Origin: Candidatus Aenigmatarchaeota archaeon
Lineage (GTDB): Archaea > Aenigmatarchaeota > Aenigmatarchaeia > GW2011-AR5 > JAGGXF01
Reading direction: 5' to 3'
Length of the DNA stretch: 64,000 bases
Assembly: GCA_021163205.1 (NCBI GenBank)
Contig: JAGGXF010000003.1
Coordinates: forward strand, 1,200 to 65,199
Shown: positions 1 through 19,726 of the stretch, in pieces
Layout of the letters: each line of letters opens with the position of its first letter
Position numbering within the stretch: the first letter of the stretch is position 1
Translations under genes and position numbers: made by a program
The notes under the pieces: generated by a model
What the model was told of the DNA's origin: nothing
Databases searched by the model: none
Seen by the model: the letters and a program-made list of their open reading frames with translations, nothing else

Positions 1-814
1 TGAACTCATCAACTATCTCTTCTGGATAATCTAAAGAATATCGAGTTATCGTTGTCATGGCATTAAGGTTGAAATCGTTTTTGAATTCTTCTTTTATTCT
101 TTTTATCCAATAGACAACATCATCATATGTGCCCATGCCATTGAGATATTTTCTATTCTTGTTATGAACTTCTTTTGGCCCGTCTAGCGATGTTGCCAAA
201 CCCATTATATGATGTTTCTTAAGGAAATTTAGTTTGTCTTCATCAAATTTTGTTAAATTCGTGACAACGCTAAATTTCAGTTTTTTATTCTTTTCTTCTG
301 CCTTCTTTTCTGCGTATTCTATGACAAACTTCACAATATCAAAGTTCAGAGAGCAATCGCCACCTTGAAATTCTATTGACAATGTCTTTGCGGGCGATTT
401 GAAAATGAAATCCACAACTGCCTTTGCAGTGTCCTCGTCCATGTCATACCCTTCTGCGTTTTCCGGCTTAGCAACAGAATGACAATAAATGCAACGCTGG
501 TTACAACGAAAAGTAGGAATTAATATATGCAAAGACGGCCCATTAAAAAGAAAGCTATTACGCTCCCTGTATTTCTTAACGATGCGCTCAACGTTATTTT
601 TTGTTAATACCACTCCCTTCTCTTCCAGCACACCTAGAAGCATCGCATTCTCTCTAAGTTTCATAGACCTTAAAAGTCGATATTCATCATCAGTTAATAA
701 GACCCAGTCACCGTGATCAGTTGTCACTAGTATCTTGTCGTCTAACCTGAGGGTTCTGTAGAAATTTGGTATGTATCTCGAAGACAAATCAACACCAGAA
801 AAACTTTCTACCAT
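1..814 (-). CDS. radical SAM enzyme (N-terminal part; C-terminus lies beyond window start)
   Basis: Reverse translation from ATG (revcomp of 812-814) gives MVESFSGVDLSS...LHILIPTFRCNQRCIYCHSV..., a CxxxCxxC radical SAM cluster motif. The start overlaps the stop of the upstream small ORF (ATGA). The reading frame is open to coordinate 1. Confidence 0.7.
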   Translation of the reverse strand, partial: MVESFSGVDLSSRYIPNFYRTLRLDDKILVTTDHGDWVLLTDDEYRLLRSMKLRENAMLLGVLEEKGVVLTKNNVERIVKKYRERNSFLFNGPSLHILIPTFRCNQRCIYCHSVAKPENAEGYDMDEDTAKAVVDFIFKSPAKTLSIEFQGGDCSLNFDIVKFVIEYAEKKAEEKNKKLKFSVVTNLTKFDEDKLNFLKKHHIMGLATSLDGPKEVHNKNRKYLNGMGTYDDVVYWIKRIKEEFKNDFNLNAMTTITRYSLDYPEEIVDEF

Positions 815-1071
815 CACAACACCTTATTCTTGATAAGATACAACAAATAATTCATAAATTCATAACCAATTATTTCTAGATCCTCCTTTGAATCGACGAC
901 CTGTTTCGGCTTCAGAATAACCTTATGAATCTGCTCATTTTTTCTATCTTCAACTTCACAGACTTCTGAGTATTCTTCGATTGCCTTGTTAATGACTTCT
1001 TCTGGATAGAGATCACTATTAATGGTCAATTCTACTTTATTTTCATTCACAACTACATCATCGTTCATCAA
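814..1071 (-). CDS. small acidic protein, paralog A of tandem pair (possibly HxsD-like rSAM accessory protein)
   Basis: 85-aa ORF. It shares the motif (T/S)IN(S/P)x(L/I)YP(E/L)EVIxxA...K(L/P)K with the adjacent 173-aa ORF. It is translationally coupled to the downstream radical SAM gene. Confidence 0.5.
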   Translation of the reverse strand: MMNDDVVVNENKVELTINSDLYPEEVINKAIEEYSEVCEVEDRKNEQIHKVILKPKQVVDSKEDLEIIGYEFMNYLLYLIKNKVL

Positions 1072-1072
1072 T

Positions 1073-1594
1073 TCACTCCTCTTTTTTATTCTCTTCGCTT
1101 TCTTTTATTTTACTTTCTTCTTTGATATCCTCTTTAAGTTCTTCAGGCAGGTCTAATCCTTCTGCTTTTTCTGGTGTCCATGGTTCTGCTATGCCTTCTG
1201 GGTCTTCTATAAAATCAACGTCTTCTTCGTTGTCGTTGCCTTCATATTCATCCTCTGCCTGTAGATTTGTGCCAAGCGCTGCCTCAACAATTGCTTTTCT
1301 TATATCCTTGTTTCGAGCTGCCTGAACAACATAAACTGAGTAGTTCACAAGTTCGTTGTGGAACTCAAAAGCAGCCTTCTCTAGGTCTTCTTTACTTGTT
1401 GACTCTTTTGCTTTTAACTTGACTATTATCTCTGTTTCCGGGTCTCCATCTATTATTGTATAAAACTTGTCCAAGAAAACATACGCAGCTGAATATATGA
1501 CCTCAAGCGGATATATCTTAGGATTAATAGATATTACAACTTGGTTTTTCTCTTCTTCAACATCAATAGGAACAGGGACATCCAATAGAATCAC
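1073..1594 (-). CDS. small protein, paralog B of tandem pair with long acidic C-terminal tail
   Basis: 173-aa ORF. The N-terminal ~100 aa are paralogous to ORF 814-1071 (ISINPKIYPLEVIYSAAYVF vs LTINSDLYPEEVINKAIEEY). The C-terminus is a D/E-rich tail. There is a 1-nt gap to the next gene. Confidence 0.5.
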   Translation of the reverse strand: MILLDVPVPIDVEEEKNQVVISINPKIYPLEVIYSAAYVFLDKFYTIIDGDPETEIIVKLKAKESTSKEDLEKAAFEFHNELVNYSVYVVQAARNKDIRKAIVEAALGTNLQAEDEYEGNDNEEDVDFIEDPEGIAEPWTPEKAEGLDLPEELKEDIKEESKIKESEENKKEE

Positions 1595-1646: not shown

Positions 1647-2771
1647 TCATCTCATGATTACCTTAATCCAATTAACAAAACTTCCGTGGAACAGCAATGT
1701 TAAGATGTAGCCAAGTAAAAGAAAAATTGCGAACGGCTGTTTCTGGAAAACTAGAATCTCGTTGAAATCTATTTTTTTCTCTTTTTTCAGTTTCTTGATT
1801 TTTTCGATATCTTCTTTTGTTAGTTCACCTAAACTATGAATATATCTTTCCTTTCGTTGTTGAAGCGTTTGTATAAGACTTGTCTGGAGAAAGCTGATCT
1901 TTTCTATCTTTTTATTTCGTTTAACTATCCCCTCCGCAAGAATCATACCCTCTTTCAGTTTATTTATTTTAACACTTTTTGTATAAGAATGGTAAGCTAT
2001 ATGTAGAATAAAAAACCTGAAAACGAGAAATATAAATACACTAACAGCAAACTGATAGAGGAATGCTGCCGTGTATATATTTCTGTAGTCTATGATAATT
2101 CTAATGATTGCACACAAAACAAAAAAGGCTTCTGTTTTTGCCGTGAAAAACATACGCAAGATTTCATATGCTATGAACATTGCGAATATGGTAACGAAAA
2201 AATTAGATGGTAATTTAAAAAGTGAAAGAAAAGTCGTGAATAACCAGGCAAAACCAAGGAATATTACAGATATCAATACAATCTTGTAGGGCTCGAATGC
2301 GTACTTAAATGCTTTTTTAATTACATCTGCTCTTGCCCTCACCAGAAGAATTACAAAAATAAAGAAGAATATTGGCACGAAAGAGTTAACCAAATAGTCC
2401 ATAACCACCGATGAATGTTTATAAAGAATTGGTGGGAACAGGAGGCTCAATGCAAGAAAAAGCTTTGCATCACCAGCAGGCCACATACCCAGATGCCAGA
2501 AAAGGATTGACACCAGAAATGAAGATAAAAATACATTCACAAAAACCGCCGGCTCGATACCAAAATAAAACTGAAATAAGATAGCATATAGAAGTAATAA
2601 AGCAATATACCTGTTCCTGATAACACCTTTCTTTAGATCTTCATAGGAAATTAAAATTCCTATTAGAATAGGAAAAATAAACTCTATCACGAGAGTCCCA
2701 TCCACTTTTTCTTCAGTTGTATGCTTTCTAAGCAAGCTTTGATGAGTTCTTTGTCTCTCAATGTTTGACAC
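1647..2771 (-). CDS. A24-family prepilin/preflagellin peptidase-like polytopic membrane protein with C-terminal extension (true start probably downstream of 2771)
   Basis: Multiple TM segments. The motif WPAGDAKLF matches the GxGDxK catalytic-Asp motif of FlaK/PibD-type peptidases. The C-terminal soluble region resembles that of the second A24-like gene at 22815. Confidence 0.55.
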   Translation of the reverse strand: MSNIERQRTHQSLLRKHTTEEKVDGTLVIEFIFPILIGILISYEDLKKGVIRNRYIALLLLYAILFQFYFGIEPAVFVNVFLSSFLVSILFWHLGMWPAGDAKLFLALSLLFPPILYKHSSVVMDYLVNSFVPIFFFIFVILLVRARADVIKKAFKYAFEPYKIVLISVIFLGFAWLFTTFLSLFKLPSNFFVTIFAMFIAYEILRMFFTAKTEAFFVLCAIIRIIIDYRNIYTAAFLYQFAVSVFIFLVFRFFILHIAYHSYTKSVKINKLKEGMILAEGIVKRNKKIEKISFLQTSLIQTLQQRKERYIHSLGELTKEDIEKIKKLKKEKKIDFNEILVFQKQPFAIFLLLGYILTLLFHGSFVNWIKVIMR

Positions 2772-3121
2772 ATAGTATTGTTCAGACTTATACGAGCCAC
2801 ACAGAACGTCCTGATCTCCCAGTCGTTTATTTCATAACAGATAGAAATGTTATTAGTTATTTCTGCGACATCTCCTATGCAAAATGACTTATTGACATGC
2901 CCACACACCCGCTTACAGTCCTCCAATGTCGAATGTTCTGGAAGTGAAAAATTTTCTTCACAACTCTTGTAAATTTCATATGAAATGTTTGTTATATTAT
3001 TAATTGTGTTATTAAAATCCTTTACTTGGTTTGTAGACGACTGATTTAGAGATATAACTAGACAAAACAGAATGGCCAATACCAGTGCCATCACAACTAG
3101 TTGATATTTTGTCTTCTTCAT
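2687..3121 (-). CDS. small Cys-rich protein with N-terminal signal peptide/membrane anchor
   Basis: 144 aa with N-terminus MKKTKYQLVVMALVLAILFCLVISL (basic n-region plus hydrophobic h-region). The mature part has 8-9 Cys and many N-x-S/T sequons. Its start overlaps the stop of the upstream radical SAM gene (ATGA). Confidence 0.45.
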   Translation of the reverse strand: MKKTKYQLVVMALVLAILFCLVISLNQSSTNQVKDFNNTINNITNISYEIYKSCEENFSLPEHSTLEDCKRVCGHVNKSFCIGDVAEITNNISICYEINDWEIRTFCVARISLNNTMCQTLRDKELIKACLESIQLKKKWMGLS

Positions 3122-4038
3122 ATTCTGGTCACTTTATTTCCCAACACGGGCTTGAATTCATCCCAGCCATATTTTTGTGGATATTCTTTCCACGGACCTT
3201 CGCATATCAAATCAAACTTGCATTTTTTACAGCCTTCAAACTTGGCTTTGCCACTCTCCTTTCGCCACCTATCAAAGTCCTTGATGACAAGCTCAGCATC
3301 TCTGACCTCGCCTCTGGGCATGAATAACTCTGAACAATACTTCTCATAGCCCCGCATAAAGCAGAATGGGAAAGCTTCAACCATCATTCTCACACCACTA
3401 TTCTTCCCTATGTCCAAAGCCCTGTGTATGTAAGGTTTAACATCGCTCTTCCTAGGGACAACTTTGTCAAAATTTTTCCAGGCATTTCCAACAGGGTGAA
3501 CAAAAGCAAGTTGAAATTGGTCAACACCCAATTTTATGAGCAGTTCGGCAAGCTCTGGTAAAGATTTATAATTATATTTTGTGACAACAGAATTGGTCAT
3601 AACATACTGATCAAGCTCGACAAGATTTTTTATTCCTTGAACCGTCTGAGCAAAACTGCCTGGTGCACGCGTTTGCATTTCATGTATCTCTGCTGTTGGT
3701 CCGTGCAACGCTGGCGAGAATTCTGTTGCACCGGCTTTGATTATCTTCTCACAAAAATTCTTGTAGGAAAACATACGGCCATTTGACTGTATCTGGATAG
3801 CTTCGTAACCCAAATCCTTTGCATATTTTACTAACTCTAGAATATCCTTCCTTATAGTTGGTTCTCCACCTGTGAAAACAACTTCCGTGCATCCGTCTTC
3901 TTTGCCCTCTCTAAGATGCTTCTTCAGCGCGTCTGTTGTCTGGTCTCCCAGATGCCTCTTATGCGCCTGCGCACAAAAAATGCAGTTATTATTACAACGA
4001 AATCCTACCTTAAGGTCAAGCCTCTTTTGTAACGACAT
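3118..4038 (-). CDS. radical SAM enzyme
   Basis: 306 aa. Contains FRCNNNCIFCAQ (CxxxCxxC), a GGEPT glycine-rich SAM motif, and C-terminal Cys pairs (CKKCKFDLIC). Confidence 0.75.
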   Translation of the reverse strand: MSLQKRLDLKVGFRCNNNCIFCAQAHKRHLGDQTTDALKKHLREGKEDGCTEVVFTGGEPTIRKDILELVKYAKDLGYEAIQIQSNGRMFSYKNFCEKIIKAGATEFSPALHGPTAEIHEMQTRAPGSFAQTVQGIKNLVELDQYVMTNSVVTKYNYKSLPELAELLIKLGVDQFQLAFVHPVGNAWKNFDKVVPRKSDVKPYIHRALDIGKNSGVRMMVEAFPFCFMRGYEKYCSELFMPRGEVRDAELVIKDFDRWRKESGKAKFEGCKKCKFDLICEGPWKEYPQKYGWDEFKPVLGNKVTRI

Positions 4039-4121: not shown

Positions 4122-4940
4122 CTATAATATCGTAAACACGGTATAACCGATAGAGCACAAGACAAAAGAATGTTTCAGACCGCCTGTTAAAGAACCCTCA
4201 GCCATCTGTCCTATTGCCAAACCCGCGAATATACCTTGAATAACTATAAGATGCATAAAAAGTGTTTTAAAAACCTGTTGCATCTGACCCACATCTACAT
4301 CAGATTGGTATTGAAAAGCGGGCACTAAAAAATTTGAAAGACCCCACATAACACCAAGGAACACAAAGAATATGATATAGCCATTTATCATCTGTGAATA
4401 AACTCTTGATGAACGTTCCCTCCTTATGTTTTCTATTTCTTGTGCAGATTCGGCAACAGCTGTCAAAACCTCACCAATGTTTCCGCCGGAGCGATGCGTC
4501 TCATTTATCGTTTTAACAGACCTTCTTACGGTAGGGCTGTTTATCTGATTCGCAAAATTCGTCAAGACCTTCTCAAAGCTTATCCCCCAATCTATCTTTG
4601 CTATAATTTGTTTGACGTAAGGATTCAAAACACCATAATCGTTTGATTTTGTGGCCTTGACTGCCTGCGGCAATGTCATGCCAGCATTGATGTTTGCAGT
4701 AATGTCTCTTAGAAAAATAGGGAAAACTGCGTCTATCTTTTTTACCTGTAAATACTTCGCATATCTTATCCCAAGTGGAACGCCAAGAACTATCAGCGCT
4801 GATAAAAAATTCAAAGGAGCAAACCAACGAGTCCCCATAAACATGGTAAAGTTTATACTTATGAGCGAAAAGCCTATAATGAAAGCTATAACTGTCGTAT
4901 TGCTTATCTTTATGTTTTCTATTGATTTCATTATAGACAT
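4122..4940 (-). CDS. type II secretion system F-domain membrane protein (FlaJ/TadC-like, C-terminal half)
   Basis: 272 aa, polytopic. Its soluble segment (...SPTVRRSVKTINETHRSGGNIGEVLTAVAESAQEIENIRRER) is typical of the T2SS-F/FlaJ cytoplasmic domain. Confidence 0.7.
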   Translation of the reverse strand: MSIMKSIENIKISNTTVIAFIIGFSLISINFTMFMGTRWFAPLNFLSALIVLGVPLGIRYAKYLQVKKIDAVFPIFLRDITANINAGMTLPQAVKATKSNDYGVLNPYVKQIIAKIDWGISFEKVLTNFANQINSPTVRRSVKTINETHRSGGNIGEVLTAVAESAQEIENIRRERSSRVYSQMINGYIIFFVFLGVMWGLSNFLVPAFQYQSDVDVGQMQQVFKTLFMHLIVIQGIFAGLAIGQMAEGSLTGGLKHSFVLCSIGYTVFTIL

Positions 4941-4941
4941 A

Positions 4942-5895
4942 CTAGACCCTCGGTTGAGTGAAGTGTAAGAACATTATGAAAATTGTATTGAGCATTGGTA
5001 TAACTCCATACACTCCTATCTTCATAGCATCTGTTATATCCATACCCATAACTCTTCCACCTATCAAAGACATAACAGATAATATTGATATGAAAAATAA
5101 TGGTGCAGCAATCATGACAGCTGTATACAAATCGGCATACGTTGATAGCGTAGATAAGTAGTGTTCTCTTTTCAGTCTGTAGTTAAATAATGCTTCTTTC
5201 GCGGCGTTTTTCAAGTATTGCGTCAAAGAGCCTCCAGTATCTATCGTAGAAACTATACCAAAAAGAAACTGACGAAATTCATCGCTCGGCGTTCGAGACG
5301 CAACTTGCTTTATTGCAGAGGTTATATCCATACCAAATGTCTCCACGTTCCTTGTTATTACTTTGGCTTCGTTAGATATCTCTTCGTATTCTTTTATATC
5401 TCTCAAAAGCTTGAACATGACATAAGGCGGAACACCACTACTGGATATAGCAGCCATGTGATTAATGGCAAAAGGCATAACCGCCTCTATGCTGGACTTT
5501 TTAGAGCTTATCTTCTGAAAAGGATAAGAATGAAAGGTTACGAGGATGATGAGGGATGTTATGAGACTGAAAAGAAGTGAGCCTATGAGCGATGTGGTTG
5601 GCTCTATTCCAGCAACAAAAACCAGCAGAACCAGCATCCAATCAAAGATAAGAAAAAATGAGAGAAAAGTAAAAAAGAACATCTTCCCTACATACGTTTC
5701 GTAAACCATCCTCAAGTTCGATTGTTCTATTTCCTGCTTTATGGGTTTCAGGTAATTTGGAAAGTGCTTAATACCAAATCTAGCAAAAAATCGTATGGAT
5801 TTTTTATACAAGTCTTTGGCTTTTTTCCACAACGCTCTAATATTCATATCTGCCTTCATAGACAATACCATTCGAAATATTTTATAGCAACCCAA
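4942..5895 (-). CDS. type II secretion system F-domain membrane protein (FlaJ/TadB-like, N-terminal half)
   Basis: 317 aa. Carries a T2SS-F cytoplasmic domain (ITSAIKQVASRTPSDEFRQFLFGIVSTIDTGGSLTQYLKNAAKEAL) followed by TM helices. Its stop lies 1 nt before the start of the next T2SS-F gene, in a different frame. Confidence 0.7.
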   Translation of the reverse strand: MGCYKIFRMVLSMKADMNIRALWKKAKDLYKKSIRFFARFGIKHFPNYLKPIKQEIEQSNLRMVYETYVGKMFFFTFLSFFLIFDWMLVLLVFVAGIEPTTSLIGSLLFSLITSLIILVTFHSYPFQKISSKKSSIEAVMPFAINHMAAISSSGVPPYVMFKLLRDIKEYEEISNEAKVITRNVETFGMDITSAIKQVASRTPSDEFRQFLFGIVSTIDTGGSLTQYLKNAAKEALFNYRLKREHYLSTLSTYADLYTAVMIAAPLFFISILSVMSLIGGRVMGMDITDAMKIGVYGVIPMLNTIFIMFLHFTQPRV

Positions 5896-5912
5896 GATTG
5901 AGCAACACCAAA

Positions 5913-6608
5913 TTAAATTATGCTATCTGTTTCGAAAACTTTGTCGTGGTAGACAAAAAATCCCTGACTAGTTATATCGTATGGATGTAGTTTTCTCGAG
6001 TGCTCTGTTGCCCTCATTTTCAATATTGTCAGGACACGATGAAATTCCCCATTCTTCAACACCCTATGTAGTAATATGATACCATCAGTTACAAACTCTT
6101 CTATTCCGAAGCGTGAGATACCTTCTCTTATGTTTGGTATTTCTGATATCACGATCCCTGTGCACTTGTTTTTTCGAATAAGATTATTCAGTTGTTGCAT
6201 CATTATCCTTATGTCATTTTTATGACCTATATGCATACCCAAAGCAGATACAGAATCAATAACAATTCTCCTAGCATTTATCTCCTTTATGCTATTCTGA
6301 ATTATGTCCATGATATCTTCTATCCTAAATGGGTCGTATTTAACAAGCCTTAACTTATTTTCGTCTTCCATTTTTTTCAAATCCCATCCAAATGTTTCCG
6401 CAGTTTCTCGAATTTGATCAAGGCTTTCCTCGAAGCTTACAAATATCCCAGGTTCAGGAGAACTTACCAAGAAATGCAACCCAAAAATAGTCTTACCTGT
6501 ACCAGCAAAACCTGTCAGAAGAATTAAATCAGATTCCGGAACACCTTCTGGGACGAGAGCATCAAACCCCGGAATGTTGAATTTTATTCTTTTGATACTC
6601 ATCACCAA
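5913..6608 (-). CDS. KaiC/RecA-superfamily ATPase, FlaH-like
   Basis: 231 aa. Walker A LLTGFAGTGKTIFGLHF. It is the size and position of FlaH between the FlaI-like and FlaJ-like genes. Confidence 0.6.
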   Translation of the reverse strand: MVMSIKRIKFNIPGFDALVPEGVPESDLILLTGFAGTGKTIFGLHFLVSSPEPGIFVSFEESLDQIRETAETFGWDLKKMEDENKLRLVKYDPFRIEDIMDIIQNSIKEINARRIVIDSVSALGMHIGHKNDIRIMMQQLNNLIRKNKCTGIVISEIPNIREGISRFGIEEFVTDGIILLHRVLKNGEFHRVLTILKMRATEHSRKLHPYDITSQGFFVYHDKVFETDSII

Positions 6609-6675
6609 TTGTTCTAGTTATTAGATAATTAATTGTAATGAAAAGTTTTAAATCCAAATTACAGGTGTAATTGAA

Positions 6676-8400
6676 CTATTTTTCCATCATCTTGAGAACC
6701 TGCTCTGGTTTTTTCCTATATAATCTTATATATCGAACGACATCACGCCAATCAGAAAAGCTTTTGTTTCGCAGCCACTCAAGAACCTGTTTGCGTCGGG
6801 ACAGCTCTTGCTGTATTCTGCTCATTGAAATGCCCTTCTCTGTCGATATCTTGTGCAGAAGCCACGAATTTCCGTTGTACTCGTAACTATCTTCTGCCGC
6901 AACCCAAGCAAATGCCCTCGTATATTTAACCTTACCCGTGTCTTGATCAACCATACGTATTTCGTCAATTTCTTTGATACGTCTGGCGGATTTTCCTTTT
7001 TCGCGCGCATGAACAAGAATTATTACCAAGTCTAACGTTTCTATTAACCCTGGGGACAGATTTATTGGTTCTGTTTCCAACCTTTTTATGACAGCATCAA
7101 CAGAGCCAGCGTGCATAGTTGCGAGCGACGGATGGCCAGAAGCCATGCCTTGGAACATGACATATGCCTCTTTACCTCTAATTTCACCTACTATCAAATA
7201 GTCTGGGTTTTGCCTGAATGATTCCTTAAGCAAGTCAAACATCGTCACCTCGCCAGTTTCATCCCCGCCAAAACCAAGTCGCGACACGCCAGGTATCCAG
7301 TTCTCGTGGGGCAATGCCAGTTCCCTTGTATCCTCTATAGAAATGATTTTTGCCTCTTCTGGCATAAACAATGATATAGCATTTAGAAAAGATGTTTTGC
7401 CTGTTGAAACGCCACCACATATGAGAATGTTGACTCCGTTTTCAACAGCAAACCATAAATAAGCCATCATCTCAGAGGATGCTGTGCCAAGATTGATTAT
7501 ATCAACTGGTGTAAACGGCGTTTCCCTGAACTTCCTTATAGAAAATGTGGGACCTCTCGTTGTCACGTCTCCGGCAAGTGATGCTTGTACTCGCGTGCCA
7601 TCTGGGAGCGAACCATCCAGGAGCGGCTCGGCATAGCTTATATATCTATTGCATCGCTCTGCAAGCTTTATGACAAATTCTCTAAGTTCTTCTTCATTGT
7701 TGTAGACTATATTTGTTTTTATAGAACCGTACTGTCTGTGAACAACATATATTGGAATTCCTACACCATCACAACCAAGGTCTTCTATGTAAGGGTCATG
7801 TAAAAGCGGTTCTATTATGTTGAGACCAACAAAATCCCTATAAATGTAATACATAATTCTAAAGTATTCTGTTGTCGTCAAATGAAATCCATATTCATCT
7901 ATAAGCATCTGAACGTTCTTTTCCAGGTAATTCATAAGTTTTTCTTGGCTTCTCACCTCGCTCAGGTTGACATCAATCACCTGAATGAGGCCCTCCCTTA
8001 TTTTTTTCAATATTCTTTTCTGCTTCTCGCTAAGTTCCGGCTCTATGACATAATATATATACTCTTCTCGAACAGGGTCCCACATAATTCTGGCATAAGC
8101 ATACGGCTCTATCAGAGGATATCGCATAGTCTTTGGAATTTCCTTAGAAAACATTACAAACCGCTTCGGTGTCCTGAACCTGAATCTCGGATACTTGAAA
8201 TGAATATGTTCGACCTTTTTCAATTTATATTTTTTATGACCATATTCTCCAAGCTTTTTAAGCTCAAGAAGCTGCCCTGCTCGTGTAGTGCTTCTCAAAA
8301 CAGGCTTTCGATATACCCTTATAGTGTTATCTCTCTTCGTCAACTTCCTATACAAAAGTCCTCTCATAGATTTTATTTGATCTAATATGCTTTTTGTCAT
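6676..8400 (-). CDS. type II/IV secretion system ATPase, FlaI/VirB11/GspE family
   Basis: 574 aa. Walker A ICGGVSTGKTSFLNAI. Conserved secretion-ATPase core (ISIEDTRELALPHENWIP, DYLIVGEIRGKEA). Has an N-terminal domain typical of archaeal FlaI-like proteins. Confidence 0.8.
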   Translation of the reverse strand: MTKSILDQIKSMRGLLYRKLTKRDNTIRVYRKPVLRSTTRAGQLLELKKLGEYGHKKYKLKKVEHIHFKYPRFRFRTPKRFVMFSKEIPKTMRYPLIEPYAYARIMWDPVREEYIYYVIEPELSEKQKRILKKIREGLIQVIDVNLSEVRSQEKLMNYLEKNVQMLIDEYGFHLTTTEYFRIMYYIYRDFVGLNIIEPLLHDPYIEDLGCDGVGIPIYVVHRQYGSIKTNIVYNNEEELREFVIKLAERCNRYISYAEPLLDGSLPDGTRVQASLAGDVTTRGPTFSIRKFRETPFTPVDIINLGTASSEMMAYLWFAVENGVNILICGGVSTGKTSFLNAISLFMPEEAKIISIEDTRELALPHENWIPGVSRLGFGGDETGEVTMFDLLKESFRQNPDYLIVGEIRGKEAYVMFQGMASGHPSLATMHAGSVDAVIKRLETEPINLSPGLIETLDLVIILVHAREKGKSARRIKEIDEIRMVDQDTGKVKYTRAFAWVAAEDSYEYNGNSWLLHKISTEKGISMSRIQQELSRRKQVLEWLRNKSFSDWRDVVRYIRLYRKKPEQVLKMMEK

Positions 8401-9076: not shown

Positions 9077-11572
9077 GTGTCGGAGATGGAAATCGGGACA
9101 CATAACAAAGCTTATGAAAATGGACCTAATTTAGATAGTGATTCAACTGAGATCATAAATAAGGTACTTTCTACGAATAAAACCAACCCATTTGAATACA
9201 TCTCTCAATTGAAGAACTATTCTGAATTCTTTGAAAATAAAAACGAAAAAGAGCTCCTTAAAGAAAGATTACCAGAAATTGTTGGTTATAATAATGTATA
9301 TGAAGAAATCACAGACAGAACAACAGCCGCGCTCGCTCTTATAAAAGATGCCATCGCCATCAAAGACTATGACGCGCTGAAGAGCTTCTCTAAGGAATTT
9401 GGGATATCATACGAAAAACTTCTCAAACTGGGGGAGAATATGGATGAGATAGAAAAGACCGTCCGAAGATATATTAGAGGCCTAGTAAAAGAGGAGCTAT
9501 CAGAAGCCAGGGAAAAAGTTAGAAACGAATCAGCGTTGTTGAAAAGGCTCGAAGACCCCGCATATGAAGCAGAGCTTATGAAATATCCGGCCTATCAGTG
9601 GGGTAAACTCTTGAAAGAACTTGAAGATGGGGTAAACAAAGGTTACATAAAGACAGATGATTATGGAAGATACATTCTCGAGCATAATGGAGAGCCGTTC
9701 GCATTGGTTGACCCAGAATACGGTATAATAACAGACAAACCAAATAAAATCTTCGGATGGGACCCAACCTACGACAGACTGGGAAACTATGCAGTTCCCA
9801 CAAAACAGTATCTTATTGATGTTGACAGAGAAGTTGAAATACCAGACTACATTATTGAGGACGTCAAGAAAGATTCTGAGCTAAAAGAAGTGAAAACGAT
9901 AAGAGACCTTCTCAAACTAAGGCCAAAAATTGCAAAGAAATTGGGCATATATGGAGAAAAACACATAGACCCGAAAAAACTAGAAAGCTTCATCTATCTT
10001 TCTGGCAAAAAATCAAGTCTTTGGAAAAAGATAGCATCAGTTCTCATTCCTGCAGCGTTTGTTACTGCAGGTCTTGGCTGTTTGAATGGTCCAAAAGAAA
10101 CAAACCCAACCACAACACCGCAGGTAACTACAGCGCCACCGACTGATACAACACCGCCCACATCAGCAGCGCCAACAACACCAGTGAAAACGCCATCGAC
10201 AACTCCACACGTGACAACAACCGTACCGCCAACAACAACCCCAGCCCCGGACTATGTAGGACCTTATCTGGATGTTTTGGGATTGCCAAGAACACCCGAG
10301 ACAGAAAAAGAAATTAATGAATACTTGATTGAAAAGAATATCAGTCCAGAAGATGTTGGAAAGGTTTTGAAGGAGTTATCAAACTATGGTTTTGTGTCTG
10401 ATAAAGAGGTTCATGATTGGATAACAGACGAGAGACTAACCATACCTGAGATAGCAAATATGTACGAACTAATAGAAGACGGTGCATCCACTGATGTTGC
10501 ACTTTTCTTGGGAGAATATAATGATTGGATAAAGAAGCTGCCGAATTATGAAGAGGTTTTGAAAACATTAAATAACCTCGACCCGAGAGATAAGAAATAT
10601 CTGTTTATACATCCCATGACCGAAGGACGTGTAGAGGCGGCTGATGTCTTCTCGGATTGGTGTAATGGTCAGTATGGTCGGTATGTTACTAATAAAGAAA
10701 ATATAACAGAATTTTCTGCACTTTCAATAATTTATTATTTACCAGCCAGCGAAGGACCAAAGAAAAAAATACTTAGCAGAATGGAAGAAAATTTTAAACA
10801 ATATCCGAAAGATAGACTTGACATGGTGGCAAAAGACCGAAGGGCGTTGTTCTTCCTTTTATACAATATGCACCCTACCCAATTAAATTTTGGATTTGAT
10901 ATAGATAATCAAACAGAAAGTATTATATATCCAGAAACTATCGAAAAAGCCCAGGATGCTGGAAAAATTGTAGATTTGAATCCAGATAATTTAACAGACG
11001 ATGAACTTGGTAGAATTTTCTACTATGTTGCCACAACTGTCAATGGGGGCAGAGAGCTGAGGGGGGATGCAAAAAAACTAGACAAGGCTTTTGATTTGTT
11101 TTTGAAAAGAGAAGAAGATTTTGGAGACTGTCAAGTTGACTCTGCTATATTTTCAAATATTATAAACAATAGCATTCCTTTTGATGGAGAGGGTAATTCA
11201 ATCGCCATAACAACTTTAAATTATGAGAAATTGACTGAAAGATTCGCACCAAGAGATCACGCCTCCCCACTAATTTTAAAAGAGGATAAGAATGGGGACA
11301 TAAATTGTTATGTTCCTTGGTATGATAAGCATAAGAAAAAAATTATTCTTGTTCGTGCAAAATTTTCAGGTTCTTATAGATTTATTTCTCCATATCTACT
11401 TTTAATTGAATATGGAACAGATGAGTATGGAAAGCCTATGCCTATAGTGCATCAATATATAAAAGGGTCTCGAACAGAATTAATAAAACTGCCTGAAGTT
11501 GATATAGATTCGGAGGGACTTGTAAACGAAATCTTTAAGTCAGGCGAAAAATTAATCAGAGCCTGGGATTGA
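9077..11572 (+). CDS. large single-pass membrane protein with Pro/Thr-rich linker; function unknown
   Basis: 831 aa. Has an N-terminal ~315-aa coiled-coil-rich domain and a TM helix (IASVLIPAAFVTAGLGCLNG). A ~60-aa low-complexity T/P linker (TTTPQVTTAPPTDTTPPTSAAPTTPVKTPSTTPHVTTTVPPTTTPAP) follows, then a ~430-aa C-terminal domain. The start may be GTG 9077 or ATG 9086. Confidence 0.6.
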   Translation: MSEMEIGTHNKAYENGPNLDSDSTEIINKVLSTNKTNPFEYISQLKNYSEFFENKNEKELLKERLPEIVGYNNVYEEITDRTTAALALIKDAIAIKDYDALKSFSKEFGISYEKLLKLGENMDEIEKTVRRYIRGLVKEELSEAREKVRNESALLKRLEDPAYEAELMKYPAYQWGKLLKELEDGVNKGYIKTDDYGRYILEHNGEPFALVDPEYGIITDKPNKIFGWDPTYDRLGNYAVPTKQYLIDVDREVEIPDYIIEDVKKDSELKEVKTIRDLLKLRPKIAKKLGIYGEKHIDPKKLESFIYLSGKKSSLWKKIASVLIPAAFVTAGLGCLNGPKETNPTTTPQVTTAPPTDTTPPTSAAPTTPVKTPSTTPHVTTTVPPTTTPAPDYVGPYLDVLGLPRTPETEKEINEYLIEKNISPEDVGKVLKELSNYGFVSDKEVHDWITDERLTIPEIANMYELIEDGASTDVALFLGEYNDWIKKLPNYEEVLKTLNNLDPRDKKYLFIHPMTEGRVEAADVFSDWCNGQYGRYVTNKENITEFSALSIIYYLPASEGPKKKILSRMEENFKQYPKDRLDMVAKDRRALFFLLYNMHPTQLNFGFDIDNQTESIIYPETIEKAQDAGKIVDLNPDNLTDDELGRIFYYVATTVNGGRELRGDAKKLDKAFDLFLKREEDFGDCQVDSAIFSNIINNSIPFDGEGNSIAITTLNYEKLTERFAPRDHASPLILKEDKNGDINCYVPWYDKHKKKIILVRAKFSGSYRFISPYLLLIEYGTDEYGKPMPIVHQYIKGSRTELIKLPEVDIDSEGLVNEIFKSGEKLIRAWD

Positions 11573-12378: not shown

Positions 12379-13080
12379 ATGCTCTCCGTGATTCTGCCAG
12401 TTCACAACGAAGAAGAAAATCTTAAGCGGAATTTCTATAAAATTTATAAAAGTTTTGTTGGTCTTGGCGAAAAATTCGAAATCATAATTGCTGAGGACGG
12501 CTCTACTGACAACAGCCCAAAAATCTGCGAAAAATTTAAAAAGGAATTCAAAAATGTAAGGCACATTCACAGCAATACTAAACTGGGCAAAGGAAAGGCT
12601 CTTACTAATGCCATTCTAAAATCAAAAGGAAACAAGATCTGCTTTATGGACATAGACCTTTCGGCAGATCTTAGACACATTAAAAAAATAATAAAATGCC
12701 TGGAAACAAATGATATTTGCATCGGTTCTAGATATTCGAGAAGGAGCAAAAGATTTGGCAGTATGAAAAGGCTCTTGTTAAGCAGAGTATACAACTTTCT
12801 GGTAAGGATGGTTCTTGGCTCCAAAATCAGTGACCATCAGTGCGGTTTCAAGGCTTTTCGCAAAAAAAGTGTTCTGCCGATTTTGAAAAGGATGAAAAGC
12901 AAAAGCTTTTTCTGGGACACGGAAATGCTTGTTCTGGCGCAAAGAGCGCGCCTGAAGATAAAAGAAATTCCTGTTGTCTGGAGGGAGGGAAAAGACACGC
13001 GAGTAGATGTCATCAAGGACAGCATCTCAATGTTCTATGGAATAATAGAACTGAGAAAAAGATTGTCTAAAGGGTTGTAA
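12379..13080 (+). CDS. family 2 glycosyltransferase (dolichyl-phosphate sugar synthase-like)
   Basis: 233 aa. MLSVILPVHNEEENL...IIAEDGSTDNS...MDIDLSAD carries the GT2 DxD/ED signature of the DPM1-like architecture. Confidence 0.8.
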   Translation: MLSVILPVHNEEENLKRNFYKIYKSFVGLGEKFEIIIAEDGSTDNSPKICEKFKKEFKNVRHIHSNTKLGKGKALTNAILKSKGNKICFMDIDLSADLRHIKKIIKCLETNDICIGSRYSRRSKRFGSMKRLLLSRVYNFLVRMVLGSKISDHQCGFKAFRKKSVLPILKRMKSKSFFWDTEMLVLAQRARLKIKEIPVVWREGKDTRVDVIKDSISMFYGIIELRKRLSKGL

Positions 13081-14107
13081 TAAAATTCTTGAAAAAGGTC
13101 AGCGCTGTTTCAAAAACTCGCGGGCCGAACATGTTTTGCGTGCAATAATAACAGCTGAAAACGCATCCCTCGCATTTGTGCGCGAGCCTTTTCCTTTTTT
13201 CATGGAACTCCTTGCTACCATACCATTCCAAAAAATCCTTGTCAAGAATATTTTTTTCCATAGAAAAATCCTGGCATATATAAAATTCTCCGTCAGGCAT
13301 TATATCGAAAAAAACCAAACCGGCCTTGCAGTTCCACTTGTTCTTCTGGCTTATGAGATATTTCTCAGACAAACGCAGATAATAAGGCGGGGTCATCATG
13401 CCAGAAGAGAAGTATTGTCTTTTCAACAGCGAATATGTTTTTTTGACATCTTCAGAGTTCAGGTAACCATCACCTCTTGGCCTGAATCCATAATCGTCAG
13501 AATAGTGAGAATACATCACAGGTGACAAAAAGATATTAACACCAAGTGACTTGGCGAAGCTGACTATTTCAGGCAACTCTTTTATGTTTTTTTCTGTGAC
13601 CATCGTACTTATGTTAATGTTCTGTCCTTTTGCCTTATTTTTGGCGAGAAATTTAAGATTTTTCATGACCGTATCAAAATGTCCCCGTTGTGCATTATGA
13701 ACCTCTCTTTTTAGCGAATCCAATGATATTGATATTAAGTTTATTTTCGTGTCCAGCAGCCTTTTGTACATATGCTGAGGCATAGTGCCGTTGCTTGTTA
13801 TTTGTGTCCAAAAGCCTCTTTTGTTTGCATATTCTATGAGGTCAAAAATATCTGGGTTCAACAGGGGTTCGCCACCTGTAAAAGATATCTGGACAACGCC
13901 CATTCTATCCAGTATGTCGATAATCCTGATGAAACCTTCCTTGGATAATTCTTTGGGTATGACTTTTTCTCTAACACCACAATACTTGCACCTCAGATTG
14001 CATCTTTTGGTGACATGCAAATGCGCAAAAAAAGGTTTGTTTCGTAAAAAAAAGTTTCTGCTAGTCCTTAGCAATATCTTTGCAGTTTTAGCTGAAAAAT
14101 CAAACAA
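13067..14107 (-). CDS. radical SAM enzyme with C-terminal SPASM domain
   Basis: 346 aa. HVTKRCNLRCKYCGV (CxxxCxxC). The C-terminus CKAGLVFFDIMPDGEFYICQD...CEGCVFSCYYCTQ has SPASM-type auxiliary-cluster cysteines. Overlaps the GT2 gene end by 14 nt (convergent). Confidence 0.75.
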   Translation of the reverse strand: MFDFSAKTAKILLRTSRNFFLRNKPFFAHLHVTKRCNLRCKYCGVREKVIPKELSKEGFIRIIDILDRMGVVQISFTGGEPLLNPDIFDLIEYANKRGFWTQITSNGTMPQHMYKRLLDTKINLISISLDSLKREVHNAQRGHFDTVMKNLKFLAKNKAKGQNINISTMVTEKNIKELPEIVSFAKSLGVNIFLSPVMYSHYSDDYGFRPRGDGYLNSEDVKKTYSLLKRQYFSSGMMTPPYYLRLSEKYLISQKNKWNCKAGLVFFDIMPDGEFYICQDFSMEKNILDKDFLEWYGSKEFHEKRKRLAHKCEGCVFSCYYCTQNMFGPRVFETALTFFKNFITTL

Positions 14108-14339: not shown

Positions 14340-15779
14340 TTATCCTTTCATAACAGCCAAAGGCACAAGCTTTGCAACAAGCTTTGCTATGCCCAAAGCA
14401 TCTGAAACGCGCACAACTTCGTCTATATCTTTGTAAGCTTTTGGCGCTTCCTCTGCCAAAACCTTCCACGAAGCAGAACGAACAAGTATATTCTGCTTTT
14501 CCAACTCTTCCTTAACCTTTTCACCACGCGTGGTTCTTAACATCTGTGCCCGACTAGAGACCCTGCCTGCGCCATGCGCCGTAGAGCCGAATGTAAGATT
14601 CATCGCCTCTTTTGTTCCATGAAGCACATAAGATGCAGTACCCATTGAACCGGGAATAAGAACAGGTTGTCCAACTTTTCTGTACACAGCAGGAACATCT
14701 TCATGTCCTGGTGGAAAACTTCGTGTCGCACCTTTTCTGTGAACATAAACTTTTCTTGTTTCACCGTCTATTTTATGCTTCTCAACTTTGCCAATGTTGT
14801 GACAAACATCATAAACAATATGCATACCTAGGTCTTCTGCGCTCTGGCCAATTACTTTTTGGAAAGCCTCGCGTGTCCAGTGGGTTATTAATTGACGATT
14901 GCACCATGCAAAGTTGGCAGCACATTTCATAGCTTCATAGTACTCTGCACAGGTGTCTGTTCCGGCCGGAGCATAAATGAGCTCTCGGTCCGGAAGCTTA
15001 GAAACGATGTCATTAAATTTATTTTCCATCTCCCTCAGATAATCTGTACAAACTTGATGACCAAATCCCCGAGAACCGGTATGAATCATAATACAGACTT
15101 GACCTTTTTCAAGACCAAAAACCTTAGCAACATCCTCGTTAAATATGTCTTTTATAAGTTGTATCTCCACAAAATGATTTCCTGCACCTGTTGTTCCTAT
15201 TTGCTCTTTACCGCGCTTAAGAGCCTTGTCAGAAACAGTGTCTGTATCAGCAAGCATGCTTCCATTCTCTTCTAGAAACTTCGGGTCTTCCTTCCAAGCA
15301 TATCCTTGTTCGACGGCCCACTTAACGCCTTTAGCAAGCGGCTCTAAAAGTTCTGACTTGCTCAATCGCAGCTTACCTGCCCGCCCAACCCCAGACGGTA
15401 TGTTTTTGAAAATCGTGTCCAGAAGCTCTTTGAGGTGTGGCTTAATATCGCTAAGCGTAAGGTTTGTGCGAATAATTCGAACGCCACAATTGATATCAAA
15501 ACCTATACCTCCGGGCGAAAGCCCACCTTTTTCATAATCAAGAGCAGCAACACCACCTATTGGAAAACCATATCCCTGATGACAGTCAGGTAATGCTATT
15601 GAATACTTATATATTCCAGGCAACGCAGCAACATTTTTAGTCTGCTCTATTGTGTTGTCCCCCTTTATTTTTTCAATAAGCTTTTCAGATGCAAAAATCC
15701 GACCAGGAACATTCATTTGACCTTCCTTCGGTATCTCCCAGACCATATCATTTATCTTTTTCAATTCCATAACCACCAC
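14340..15779 (-). CDS. rtcB: RNA-splicing ligase RtcB
   Basis: 479 aa. Motifs GIGFDINCGVR, HTGSRGFGHQV and NHAGAGR-like. Full-length with no intein. Confidence 0.9.
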   Translation of the reverse strand: MVVMELKKINDMVWEIPKEGQMNVPGRIFASEKLIEKIKGDNTIEQTKNVAALPGIYKYSIALPDCHQGYGFPIGGVAALDYEKGGLSPGGIGFDINCGVRIIRTNLTLSDIKPHLKELLDTIFKNIPSGVGRAGKLRLSKSELLEPLAKGVKWAVEQGYAWKEDPKFLEENGSMLADTDTVSDKALKRGKEQIGTTGAGNHFVEIQLIKDIFNEDVAKVFGLEKGQVCIMIHTGSRGFGHQVCTDYLREMENKFNDIVSKLPDRELIYAPAGTDTCAEYYEAMKCAANFAWCNRQLITHWTREAFQKVIGQSAEDLGMHIVYDVCHNIGKVEKHKIDGETRKVYVHRKGATRSFPPGHEDVPAVYRKVGQPVLIPGSMGTASYVLHGTKEAMNLTFGSTAHGAGRVSSRAQMLRTTRGEKVKEELEKQNILVRSASWKVLAEEAPKAYKDIDEVVRVSDALGIAKLVAKLVPLAVMKG

Positions 15780-19632: not shown

Positions 19633-19726
19633 GGGTCTGTAGTCTAGCTAATGCGCAAGCATCTAGAATGGTCTAGGATCGGGCCTTCGGGAGGCTCAGA
19701 CAGGAGTTCAAATCTCCTCAGACCCA
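19633..19726 (+). tRNA. tRNA-Pro(CGG) with putative 20-nt non-canonical intron in the D-loop (19649-19668)
   Basis: Acceptor GGGTCTG/CAGACCC. T-arm AGGAG-TTCAAAT-CTCCT. Anticodon stem-loop GGGCC-TTCGGGA-GGCTC (anticodon CGG, U33, G37). The D-region is 20 nt too long: AGC[TAATGCGCAAGCATCTAGAA]TGGTCTA. Confidence 0.7.

What the first reader, a model, noticed from the sequence alone, without database searches (positions are those of the whole stretch)
814..1594. Tandem paralogous small proteins sharing an (T/S)INxx(L/I)YPxEVI motif, one with a 60-aa poly-acidic tail, coupled to a radical SAM gene
ORF 814-1071 and the N-terminal part of ORF 1073-1594 align directly by eye (LTINSDLYPEEVINKAIEEY / ISINPKIYPLEVIYSAAYVF; HKVILKPK / IIVKLKAK). 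The second adds a D/E-rich tail. They are separated by 1 nt, and the first overlaps the start of the downstream rSAM. From memory, this motif resembles HxsD-type small proteins that accompany radical SAM peptide-maturation systems, but I cannot verify that here. Duplicated small partner proteins suggest a chaperone or substrate-recognition role for the rSAM enzyme.
Basis: partly seen in the sequence, partly recalled or inferred. Interest (0 to 1): 0.5.

Follow-up and report, generated by a model that had tools for sequence, protein, structure and literature searches.

The report
Archaeal HxsD plus HxsD-like pair
The two small tandem genes are a full-length HxsD and a shortened HxsD-like paralogue sitting in front of the radical-SAM enzyme HxsB in a DPANN archaeon, so this is a correctly guessed, already catalogued accessory pair of the His-Xaa-Ser protein-maturation system, not a new kind of element.

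Summary
All genes are on the minus strand.

- **The two small proteins.** ORF 1594-1073 (173 aa) passes NCBIfam's curated cut-off for HxsD. ORF 1071-814 (85 aa) passes the cut-off for "HxsD-like protein". NCBI already gives a 100% identical protein that name.
- **Paralogy.** They share 35% identity (E=1e-6) and the same predicted ββαββα fold.
- **The rSAM gene.** It is HxsB. A contig 99.96% identical to the window shows the full enzyme with its SPASM domain. A 141-aa substrate with 18 consecutive His-x-Ser triplets follows it.
- **Conservation.** 40 of 63 independent metagenomic HxsB loci with readable upstream sequence carry the long+short pair directly upstream.

New details from this work:
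- The "acidic tail" is a variable linker carrying a conserved motif, DP(L/E)GIAxPW.
- In some relatives the tail gains a ferredoxin domain or zinc-ribbon-like cysteine repeats.
- An A24 prepilin-type peptidase is a frequent operon partner.

The mechanism is inferred by analogy with E. coli HXS: the pair acts as adaptor subunits for the rSAM maturases.

Interest is low to moderate. The family is catalogued, but the archaeal form is unstudied.

The parts
1073..1594 (-). hxsD, long form (173 aa). It has an N-terminal HxsD domain (about residues 10-107) and a 61-aa acidic tail.
   Evidence: TIGR03976 scores 56.7 bits against a cut-off of 50. Homologues are named HxsD by NCBI and JGI and carry PF27806. 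In the AF2 model the N-domain has pLDDT around 97 and the tail is disordered.
1178..1216 (-). Conserved tail motif DFIEDPEGIAEPW (residues 127-139 of HxsD). Family consensus is DP(L/E)GIAxPW(E/T)(E/P)K.
   Evidence: D131 and I135 are invariant, and P132, G134, P138 and W139 are at least 90% conserved in 65 homologues. A strict regex matches 34 of 52 distinct long-form proteins from independent loci; about 46 of 52 match by my eye count when single substitutions are allowed.
814..1071 (-). hxsD-like, short paralogue (85 aa; 84 aa from the ATG at 1068). It is the HxsD core without the third helix and without a tail.
   Evidence: NF038315 HxsD_rel scores 54.9 bits against a cut-off of 41. The 100% identical protein P0121 is named 'HxsD-like protein' by NCBI. 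AF2 gives pLDDT 91.7 and pTM 0.82. A search of 1.84 billion representatives finds 86 clusters, nearly all of 65-110 aa.
1..814 (-). hxsB, N-terminal 271 codons of the radical SAM/SPASM maturase. The gene is cut by the window edge; the CxxxCxxC motif is at CNQRCIYC.
   Evidence: TIGR03978 scores 242.6 bits over model positions 3-257 of 466. The full-length 477-aa version from L091 scores 439.9 bits against a cut-off of 370. The best solved relative is CteB, 5wgg.
1647..2690 (-). Archaeal A24 (prepilin-type) aspartyl peptidase with an Arc_PepC C-terminal domain. It is the proposed leader peptidase of the cassette. The longest ORF extends to 2771.
   Evidence: Pfam Arc_PepC, Arc_PepC_II and Peptidase_A24 all hit, and the best NCBIfam hit is EppA. 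An A24 gene lies directly upstream of hxsD on the same strand in 9 of 42 loci, and within 6 kb in 6 more.
2687..3121 (-). 144-aa Cys-rich protein with an N-terminal hydrophobic anchor. Its start overlaps the stop of the upstream rSAM gene by 4 nt. Its role is unknown.
   Evidence: ORF. There is no family hit. I found it only in the close relatives L001 and L005.
3118..4038 (-). HxsC-like radical SAM enzyme (306 aa) with a C-terminal CxxCx5C motif.
   Evidence: The best NCBIfam hits are HxsC4 (180.9 bits, cut-off 500) and HxsC (122 bits, cut-off 267.9), both below cut-off. It is 24% identical to Aeromonas HxsC over the whole core, E=3e-17. Relatives scoring at least 250 bits on my HMM occur in 20 of 44 loci with at least 8 kb of flank.
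4122..8400 (-). Co-directional type-IV-pilus-like genes: FlaI/T2SSE ATPase (6676-8400), KaiC-like ATPase (5913-6608) and two T2SSF/FlaJ-like membrane proteins (4942-5895, 4122-4940). This is context; whether they belong to the system is uncertain.
   Evidence: Pfam hits. The same block precedes the HxsC-like gene in L001 and L003 but not in more distant loci.

Best explanation
The two ORFs are hxsD and an hxsD-like paralogue. Together with hxsB they form the core of a His-Xaa-Ser (HXS) radical-SAM protein-maturation cassette in a DPANN archaeon (Aenigmarchaeota).

**Shown here**
- Both proteins belong to the HxsD superfamily.
- The long one keeps the three-helix architecture of bacterial HxsD. 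It adds a flexible acidic linker carrying a conserved DP(L/E)GIAxPW motif.
- The short one is the bare beta-beta-alpha-beta-beta-alpha core.
- The order hxsD, hxsD-like, hxsB is tightly packed and widely conserved.
- In this organism hxsB is followed immediately by a substrate gene. Its product has a conserved about 25-residue leader (KLPxIKKxIxxFLxxEEGxIxKK type), a hydrophobic segment and 18 consecutive HxS triplets.

**Inferred**
- By analogy with E. coli HXS, the two proteins are non-catalytic adaptor subunits of the maturase complex. In E. coli, HxsD is needed for HxsA processing and forms a complex with HxsC.
- Either they act as a heterodimer, or one serves each rSAM enzyme (the HxsC-like enzyme at 3118-4038 and HxsB). 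In either case they position the substrate for modification of the HxS tract.
- The long form's tethered C-terminal motif is a docking peptide for a partner. Relatives fused to a ferredoxin domain suggest the tail helps bring an electron donor to the rSAM clusters.
- The adjacent A24 peptidase probably removes the N-terminal leader at the membrane.
For: - **Family membership.** Curated NCBIfam cut-offs are passed for HxsD, HxsD_rel and full-length HxsB. NCBI names the identical 84-aa protein 'HxsD-like protein' and homologues of the long form 'HxsD'.
- **Paralogy.** BLASTP E=1e-6 and the same predicted fold.
- **Orthology of the long form to bacterial HxsD.** The helix 2-3 region aligns with Aeromonas HxsD, 39% identity over 31 aa.
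- **Conservation.** 40 of 63 loci carry both genes upstream of HxsB. Gaps between the short gene and hxsB mostly fall between -17 and +14 nt.
- **Substrate.** L091 is 99.96% identical to the window and carries a 141-aa HxS-repeat protein 20 nt after hxsB. The leader is conserved in 48 distinct proteins, with P, F, EE and G near-invariant. It hits the HxsA4 and HxsA3 models.
- **Tail motif.**
- **Fusions.** Three long-form clusters end in a Fer4_13 ferredoxin domain (40.6-58.8 bits, cut-off 24.5). The four roughly 220-228-aa long-form clusters I read have CxxC repeats resembling double zinc ribbons in the linker; three were scanned and score below the Pfam cut-off. Four more clusters of the same length appear.
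- **A24 adjacency.**
- **Experimental analogy.** PMC13128918 shows that HxsB, HxsC and HxsD are each needed for HxsA cleavage, and that HxsC pulls down HxsD.
Against: - No interaction, modification or cleavage was tested here. The adaptor role is carried over from a bacterial system whose HxsD is only about 24% identical.
- The E. coli residues shown to matter (D61/R65 of LLNDYxLRE) are N84 and Y88 in the long archaeal form, and they are not conserved in the short form.
- The HxsC-like and HxsA-like proteins fall below the curated cut-offs.
- 23 of 63 loci lack one or both small genes next to hxsB, so the pair is not obligatory.
- Gene adjacency to hxsB says little about the binding partner. 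Bacterial hxsD also overlaps hxsB, yet its product binds HxsC.
- Ferredoxin fusions are rare (3 of the 120 clusters listed).
- The window's own tail has no cysteines.
Confidence: 0.85

Rival explanations
1. The two proteins are the leader-recognition elements of the system, functional equivalents of PqqD-type RREs. They bind the conserved HxsA leader and hand it to the rSAM enzymes, rather than acting mainly as enzyme-docking or redox adaptors.
For: The HxsA leader is strongly conserved, so something must read it. The HxsC-like enzyme (306 aa) has no N-terminal extension that could hold an RRE.
Confidence: 0.3
2. The long form's conserved C-terminal motif DPxGIAxPWEEKYG is itself a second substrate. 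On this reading it is a core peptide cross-linked by one of the several neighbouring rSAM enzymes, with the HxsD domain serving as a large leader.
For: The motif lies near the C-terminus in most homologues and contains W, K and Y, which are typical targets of rSAM cross-linking (the chemistry is my background knowledge). The loci hold more rSAM genes than the two of the canonical system.
Against: The N-domain is orthologous to bacterial HxsD, an accessory protein without a tail. In ferredoxin fusions the motif is internal and a folded domain follows it. L003 and P0215 carry two copies. In the window's protein 34 more residues follow the motif.
Confidence: 0.07
3. The short gene is a decaying duplicate with no function of its own, or the similarity of the two ORFs is due to chance.
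For: The short form lacks the third helix and the tail. Eight of 63 loci have only the long form.
Against: The short form is a distinct, widely conserved family with its own curated model. It has an invariant Tyr and a near-invariant EFxNYxL motif across 75 sequences, a confident fold and a tight junction with hxsB. Pairwise E=1e-6 rules out chance.
Confidence: 0.03

Closest known systems
Bacterial HXS antiphage system (hxsD-hxsB-hxsC-hxsA), characterised in E. coli in 2026 (PMC13128918). Aeromonas salmonicida plasmid 4 (L094) was used as the sequence reference.
   Same: Both have an HxsD-family small protein directly upstream of and overlapping hxsB. HxsB is an rSAM/SPASM enzyme passing the same curated model. 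There is a second, HxsC-like rSAM with a C-terminal CxxC motif, and a secreted or anchored substrate with tandem His-x-Ser repeats.
   Different: Here there are two HxsD paralogues instead of one. The long one carries an acidic linker plus the DPxGIAxPW motif, which the 96-aa Aeromonas HxsD lacks. The substrate follows hxsB directly; it has a conserved 25-residue leader, a hydrophobic segment, 18 HxS triplets and no peptidoglycan-binding domain. The HxsC-like gene lies upstream, is about 100 residues shorter and falls below cut-off. An A24 peptidase sits in the operon. The host is a DPANN archaeon, whereas the paper places 99.7% of HXS systems in Pseudomonadota. Antiphage function is untested here.
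NCBIfam's curated variant HXS families: HxsD_rel (NF038315), HxsA3 (NF038309), HxsA4 (NF038313), HxsC4 (NF038332).
   Same: The short protein passes HxsD_rel. The substrate's and the HxsC-like enzyme's best hits are HxsA4/HxsA3 and HxsC4. More distant loci in my set pass HxsA4, for example L033 at 94.5 bits against a cut-off of 55.
   Different: This organism's HxsA-like protein (48.1 bits, cut-off 55) and HxsC-like protein (180.9 bits, cut-off 500) are below the curated cut-offs. None of these model names covers the A24 peptidase link or the tail motif. I could not read the curators' descriptions, and I found no paper on these variants.
Small stand-alone partner proteins of RiPP rSAM maturases (PqqD-type RiPP recognition elements).
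   Same: It is a small accessory protein encoded next to an rSAM/SPASM peptide maturase and required for substrate processing. The requirement is known from E. coli HxsD.
   Different: The fold differs. It is beta-beta-alpha-beta-beta-alpha with a long C-terminal helix, closest to DCoH/Rpb11/Pcc1-like dimerisation modules, not a winged helix. No sequence match to any solved structure was found.

Membership tests
HxsD (TIGR03976 / PF27806) | Score at or above the curated cut-off of the family model | tested here: met
   The long ORF scores 56.7 bits against a cut-off of 50, and precomputed PF27806 marks it and its homologues. The short ORF scores only 23.4 bits, so it is not a TIGR03976 member in its own right.
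HxsD (TIGR03976 / PF27806) | Encoded next to the HxsB radical SAM/SPASM maturase | tested here: met
   Both ORFs lie directly upstream of hxsB. Full-length HxsB was confirmed on L091.
HxsD (TIGR03976 / PF27806) | LYW and LLNDYxLRE motifs, which PMC13128918 says 'many members' contain | tested here: not met
   The long form has IYP and NELVNYSVY, and the short form has LYP and MNYLLYLIK. The Aeromonas reference also deviates (FFS / NALIDHELR). Only the F and N of EFxN are invariant. The motifs are typical of the family rather than universal.
HxsD (TIGR03976 / PF27806) | Required for HxsA processing and binds HxsC | not testable with these tools
   This is known only for E. coli.
HxsD-like protein (NF038315, HxsD_rel) | Score at or above the curated cut-off of the family model | tested here: met
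   The short ORF scores 54.9 bits against a cut-off of 41. NCBI names the 100% identical P0121 'HxsD-like protein'.
HXS system | HxsB (TIGR03978) with a SPASM domain | tested here: met
   The window fragment scores 242.6 bits over half the model. The 477-aa version on L091, 99.96% identical in DNA, scores 439.9 bits against a cut-off of 370.
HXS system | HxsC (TIGR03977), or its HxsC4 variant, at or above cut-off | tested here: not met
   ORF 3118-4038 scores 122 bits (cut-off 267.9) on HxsC and 180.9 bits (cut-off 500) on HxsC4. These are still its best hits, and it aligns with Aeromonas HxsC at E=3e-17. It is HxsC-like, not a certified member.
HXS system | HxsA substrate with tandem His-Xaa-Ser repeats | tested here: inconclusive
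   The gene lies outside the window. On L091 a 141-aa protein with 18 consecutive HxS triplets follows hxsB. It scores below the model cut-offs: HxsA4 48.1 (cut-off 55) and HxsA3 39.2 (cut-off 65), with no hit to TIGR03979.
HXS system | Gene order hxsD-hxsB-hxsC-hxsA (99.6% of bacterial systems) | tested here: not met
   The order here is HxsC-like, 144-aa protein, A24 peptidase, hxsD, hxsD-like, hxsB, hxsA-like, further rSAM, compared.
HXS system | Blocks entry of viral DNA | not testable with these tools
   PADLOC 2023 has no HXS models and gives no hit for the small proteins.
PqqD-type RiPP recognition element | Winged-helix fold (three-stranded sheet plus three helices) or a PqqD family hit | tested here: not met

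The most novel reading that the evidence does not exclude
DPANN archaea, and other uncultured lineages, carry a distinct and widespread form of the HXS system. In it, two HxsD paralogues form a heteromeric adaptor. The long one uses a tethered DPxGIAxPW peptide to recruit a redox partner or the maturase; in some lineages it is fused to ferredoxin. A dedicated A24 prepilin-type peptidase removes the conserved leader of an rSAM-modified His-x-Ser surface protein. In Aenigmarchaeota a neighbouring type-IV-pilus-like machine possibly assists. This would be the first leader peptidase assigned to HXS. The system would then reach far beyond the Pseudomonadota, to which it is currently ascribed.
Probability: 0.25. 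Interest if true: 0.55.

Novelty: new member of a known kind. Interest (0 to 1): 0.3.

Why it matters
HXS was shown in 2026 to be an antiphage system that blocks phage DNA entry in E. coli, and it was reported as almost exclusive to Pseudomonadota. This locus and its relatives point to a much wider range. Relatives include proteins that NCBI names HxsB in Aenigmarchaeota, Woesearchaeota, Pacearchaeota, Diapherotrites and Altiarchaeales.

This branch has its own features:
- two HxsD paralogues;
- a conserved docking-type motif on the long one;
- occasional ferredoxin fusions;
- substrates with up to hundreds of HxS triplets;
- an operon-linked A24 peptidase.

The bacterial work left two questions open, and these features suggest experiments for both. 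One is what HxsD actually does. The other is which protease removes the HxsA N-terminus. For genome annotation the finding itself is routine, because NCBI's pipeline already names these proteins.

Tried and rejected
- **Exact-sequence look-up of the 173-aa protein.** Not on record. The look-up worked through the 84-aa protein instead.
- **My Pfam-A copy.** No hit for either small protein. The relevant family, PF27806, is newer and appears only in precomputed annotations.
- **Word-indexed homologue search with the 85-aa protein.** Only 4 close relatives were found. The exhaustive phmmer search was needed to see the family.
- **PADLOC.** No HXS models.
- **Fold and sequence searches against the PDB.** Only generic small alpha/beta folds came back, and no sequence relative. 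They give no specific functional homologue.
- **HxsA as a type IV pilin-like protein with a class III signal peptide.** The leader ends in an invariant G (or A). However, about 6-10 polar residues follow before the hydrophobic segment, and the residue after the G is usually K. The fit to prepilin sites is therefore poor. I keep this only as a low-probability idea.
- **The 144-aa Cys-rich protein as a pilin.** Its putative K-A site in L001 is not conserved in the window.
- **D-R fusion proteins.** Long 'D-only' ORFs turned out to have a single HxsD domain plus spurious upstream extension in GC-rich contigs.
- **Genome-contig scan with the HxsB fragment.** Only two loci were returned.
Full report
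**1. What is in the sequence**

All relevant genes are on the minus strand. In the direction of transcription the order is as follows.

| Coordinates | Product |
|---|---|
| 8400-6676 | FlaI/T2SSE-type ATPase |
| 6608-5913 | KaiC-like ATPase |
| 5895-4942, 4940-4122 | two T2SSF/FlaJ-like membrane proteins |
| 4038-3118 | radical SAM enzyme |
| 3121-2687 | 144-aa Cys-rich protein with a hydrophobic N-terminus |
| 2690-1647 | archaeal A24 prepilin-type peptidase |
| 1594-1073 | 173-aa ORF |
| 1071-814 | 85-aa ORF |
| 814 to window edge | radical SAM gene, cut after 271 codons |

The stop of the 173-aa ORF (TGA, 1075-1073) is followed by A-TTG-ATG. The short ORF therefore starts 1 nt later (TTG) or 4 nt later (ATG, as NCBI calls it). 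A GAGGAG run lies just upstream. The short ORF's TGA shares one base with the ATG of the rSAM gene, giving TGATG.

**2.

BLASTP of the two small proteins gives 35% identity over 85 columns, E=1e-6. AlphaFold2 predicts the same beta-beta-alpha-beta-beta-alpha core for both:
- the long form, modelled with 65 homologues, has pLDDT about 97 over residues 10-100;
- the short form, modelled with 75 homologues, has mean pLDDT 91.7 and pTM 0.82.

The long form adds a third helix (residues 96-106) and then a low-confidence tail. The tail (residues 113-173) has 27 acidic and 7 basic residues out of 61.

**3. Identity**

NCBIfam's curated models settle the identity.

| Protein | Model | Score (bits) | Cut-off (bits) |
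|---|---|---|---|
| long form | TIGR03976 HxsD | 56.7 | 50 |
| short form | NF038315 'HxsD-like protein' | 54.9 | 41 |
| rSAM fragment | TIGR03978 HxsB | 242.6, over model positions 3-257 of 466 | 370 |

A protein 100% identical to the short ORF is already named 'HxsD-like protein [Candidatus Aenigmarchaeota archaeon]' by NCBI. Homologues of the long form are named HxsD by NCBI and JGI and carry Pfam PF27806. The organism is a DPANN archaeon. The identical partial HxsB is from Aenigmarchaeota archaeon ex4484_14. An 89%-identical locus with the same gene order is from an Aenigmatarchaeota MAG.

**4. What lies beyond the window edge**

Contig L091 matches the window at 2799 of 2800 overlapping bases. 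It shows three things.
- HxsB is a 477-aa protein scoring 439.9 bits on TIGR03978, above the cut-off, with a Cys-rich SPASM C-terminus. Its closest solved relative is the SCIFF maturase CteB.
- Twenty nucleotides downstream lies a 141-aa protein. It has a lysine-rich leader (MKEKLKKLLPKAKKSISSFIIEEKGAISKHK), a hydrophobic segment and 18 consecutive His-x-Ser triplets.
- A further rSAM gene follows.

The best family hits of the 141-aa protein are HxsA4 (48.1 bits, cut-off 55) and HxsA3. The cassette therefore contains all four HXS roles. The HxsC-like enzyme (180.9 bits against 500 for HxsC4; 122 against 267.9 for HxsC) and the HxsA-like substrate are below the curated cut-offs. The HxsC-like enzyme still aligns with Aeromonas HxsC over the whole core, including the C-terminal CxxC, at E=3e-17.

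**5. Conservation of the pair**

I collected loci through HxsB only, so the test is independent of the small genes. The set was 10 loci from exact-protein look-ups and a genome scan, plus 80 from a metagenome scan. I annotated all loci with my own HMMs.

Of 63 loci with at least 800 nt upstream of hxsB:
- 40 have long form + short form directly upstream;
- 4 have the short form only;
- 8 have the long form only;
- 11 have neither adjacent.

Gaps between the short gene and hxsB cluster between -17 and +14 nt. The short form is a family of its own. An exhaustive search of 1.84 billion representatives finds 86 clusters at E<=1e-3, nearly all of 65-110 aa. Across 75 of these sequences a Tyr is invariant and EFxNYxL is near-invariant.

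**6. The tail is more than acidic filler**

In 65 homologues of the long form, D131 and I135 are invariant. P132, G134, P138 and W139 are at least 90% conserved. In independent loci the strict pattern D[PE]xG[IVL][AS]xP[WFY] occurs in 34 of 52 distinct long forms. About 46 of 52 match by my eye count if single substitutions are allowed, with consensus DPLGIA(V/I)PWEEKYG.

The linker before the motif is variable and usually acidic. The stretch after it is basic in most lineages and acidic only in the window's clade. The conserved element is therefore the motif, not the charge.

Three clusters of long forms end in a single-cluster ferredoxin domain (Fer4_13, 40.6-58.8 bits against a cut-off of 24.5) while keeping the motif. 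The four roughly 220-228-aa clusters I read carry CxxC repeats resembling double zinc ribbons in the linker; three were scanned and score below the Pfam cut-off. Four more clusters of that length are listed.

**7. Comparison with the characterised system**

Li et al. 2026 (PMC13128918) showed that E. coli HXS is an antiphage system.
- HxsB, HxsC and HxsD are each required for N-terminal processing and a +8 Da modification of HxsA.
- Mature HxsA acts in the periplasm against phage DNA entry.
- HxsC pulls down HxsD.

A canonical locus on Aeromonas salmonicida plasmid 4 has a 96-aa HxsD without a tail. Its HxsA has a Sec signal, six HxS triplets interrupted by single Arg residues (HRSHRSHSSHRSHSSHRSH), and a C-terminal region; by analogy with E. 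coli HxsA this would be a peptidoglycan-binding domain, which I did not test.

The archaeal long form aligns with it best over helices 2-3, EFHNELVNYSVYVVQAARNKDIRKAIVEAAL against EFKNALIDHELRVVIEEKTKVVKEALVCAAL. I therefore take the long form to be the orthologue and the short form to be a truncated paralogue. The LLNDYxLRE residues mutated in E. coli are not conserved here.

**8. Other recurrent partners**

- **A24 peptidase.** An A24 gene lies directly upstream of hxsD on the same strand in 9 of 42 loci with room to see it, and within 6 kb in 6 more. The named lineages among these are Aenigmarchaeota, Woesearchaeota, Diapherotrites and Altiarchaeales.
- **Substrate leader.** Across 48 distinct HxS proteins the leader is K-(L/I)-P-x-I-K-K-x-I-K-x-F-L-x-S-E-E-G-K-I-(S/T)-K-K. 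P, F, EE and G are near-invariant.

I infer that the peptidase removes this leader, which would supply the protease the bacterial study did not identify. The site does not look like a classical prepilin site, because polar residues follow the G. This step is a hypothesis.

The type-IV-pilus-like genes adjoin the cassette only in the Aenigmarchaeota loci (window, L001, L003). Their involvement is uncertain.

**9. Mechanism, with its status**

Shown:
- family membership, paralogy and fold class;
- gene order and its conservation;
- presence of the substrate and of the SPASM domain;
- the tail motif and the fusions.

Inferred:
- The two proteins are non-catalytic adaptor subunits of the maturase complex.
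- The tethered motif is a docking peptide, and the ferredoxin fusions hint at recruitment of an electron donor.

None of this was tested physically.

**10. Verdict**

The finding is real and was correctly interpreted, but it is already catalogued. NCBI's annotation pipeline names these very proteins. I found no paper on the archaeal or variant HXS form. It differs from the characterised bacterial system in the ways listed above. I file it as a new member of a known kind, of modest interest.

Noticed in passing
window 19633-19726 (+): Rfam finds a tRNA (44.4 bits, 94 nt), but ARAGORN finds no tRNA anywhere in the 64 kb. The extra length suggests an intron-containing archaeal tRNA. An RtcB tRNA-splicing ligase gene lies nearby at 14340-15779.
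   Followed up: no
P0215, P0219, P0226 (relatives of window 1073-1594): These are natural fusions of the long HxsD, with its DPEGIAxxW motif, to a C-terminal single-cluster ferredoxin domain. Other relatives (for example P0145, P0239, P0180, P0196) have CxxC repeats resembling double zinc ribbons inserted in the linker.
   Followed up: partly
L003 11412-11682; L092 3554-3826; L009 11389-11952; L001 and L005 ends: Assemblies repeatedly break or contain runs of N in or just before the HxS-repeat gene. The repeat tract seems to defeat short-read assembly, so HxsA-type genes are probably under-counted in metagenomes.
   Followed up: no
window 4122-8400 (-); L001; L003 1-3468: A type-IV-pilus-like block (FlaI, KaiC-like, two FlaJ-like genes) sits immediately upstream of the HxsC-like gene in three Aenigmarchaeota loci. 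In L003 the FlaI homologue carries an intein (Intein_splicing and LAGLIDADG_3 hits).
   Followed up: partly
window 2687-3121 (-): A 144-aa Cys-rich protein with an N-terminal hydrophobic anchor is wedged between the HxsC-like gene and the A24 peptidase, with 4-nt overlaps at both ends. It has no family hit, and I saw it only in the closest relatives (L001, L005).
   Followed up: partly
L009 2698-21355 (Diapherotrites): More than ten radical SAM genes surround the hxsD / hxsD-like / hxsB / hxsA core. This is an unusually dense rSAM neighbourhood.
   Followed up: no
L044 11502-13307; L056 5170-6684; L043 1500-3026: Some HxsA-type substrates are very long (500-600 aa), with 29 to 149 HxS triplets. 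Others end in a short conserved GSW, GSY or GQW C-terminus.
   Followed up: no
window 9077-11572 (+) and 13067-14107 (-): An 831-aa ORF has no Pfam hit. Separately, a further radical SAM gene lies next to a family-2 glycosyltransferase (12379-13080).
   Followed up: no
L052, L057, L066, L074, L078, L079, L088: HxsB loci with 64-67% GC, probably bacterial, also carry long-form HxsD with the same tail motif, and some carry the short form too. The long+short arrangement may therefore not be restricted to archaea.
   Followed up: no
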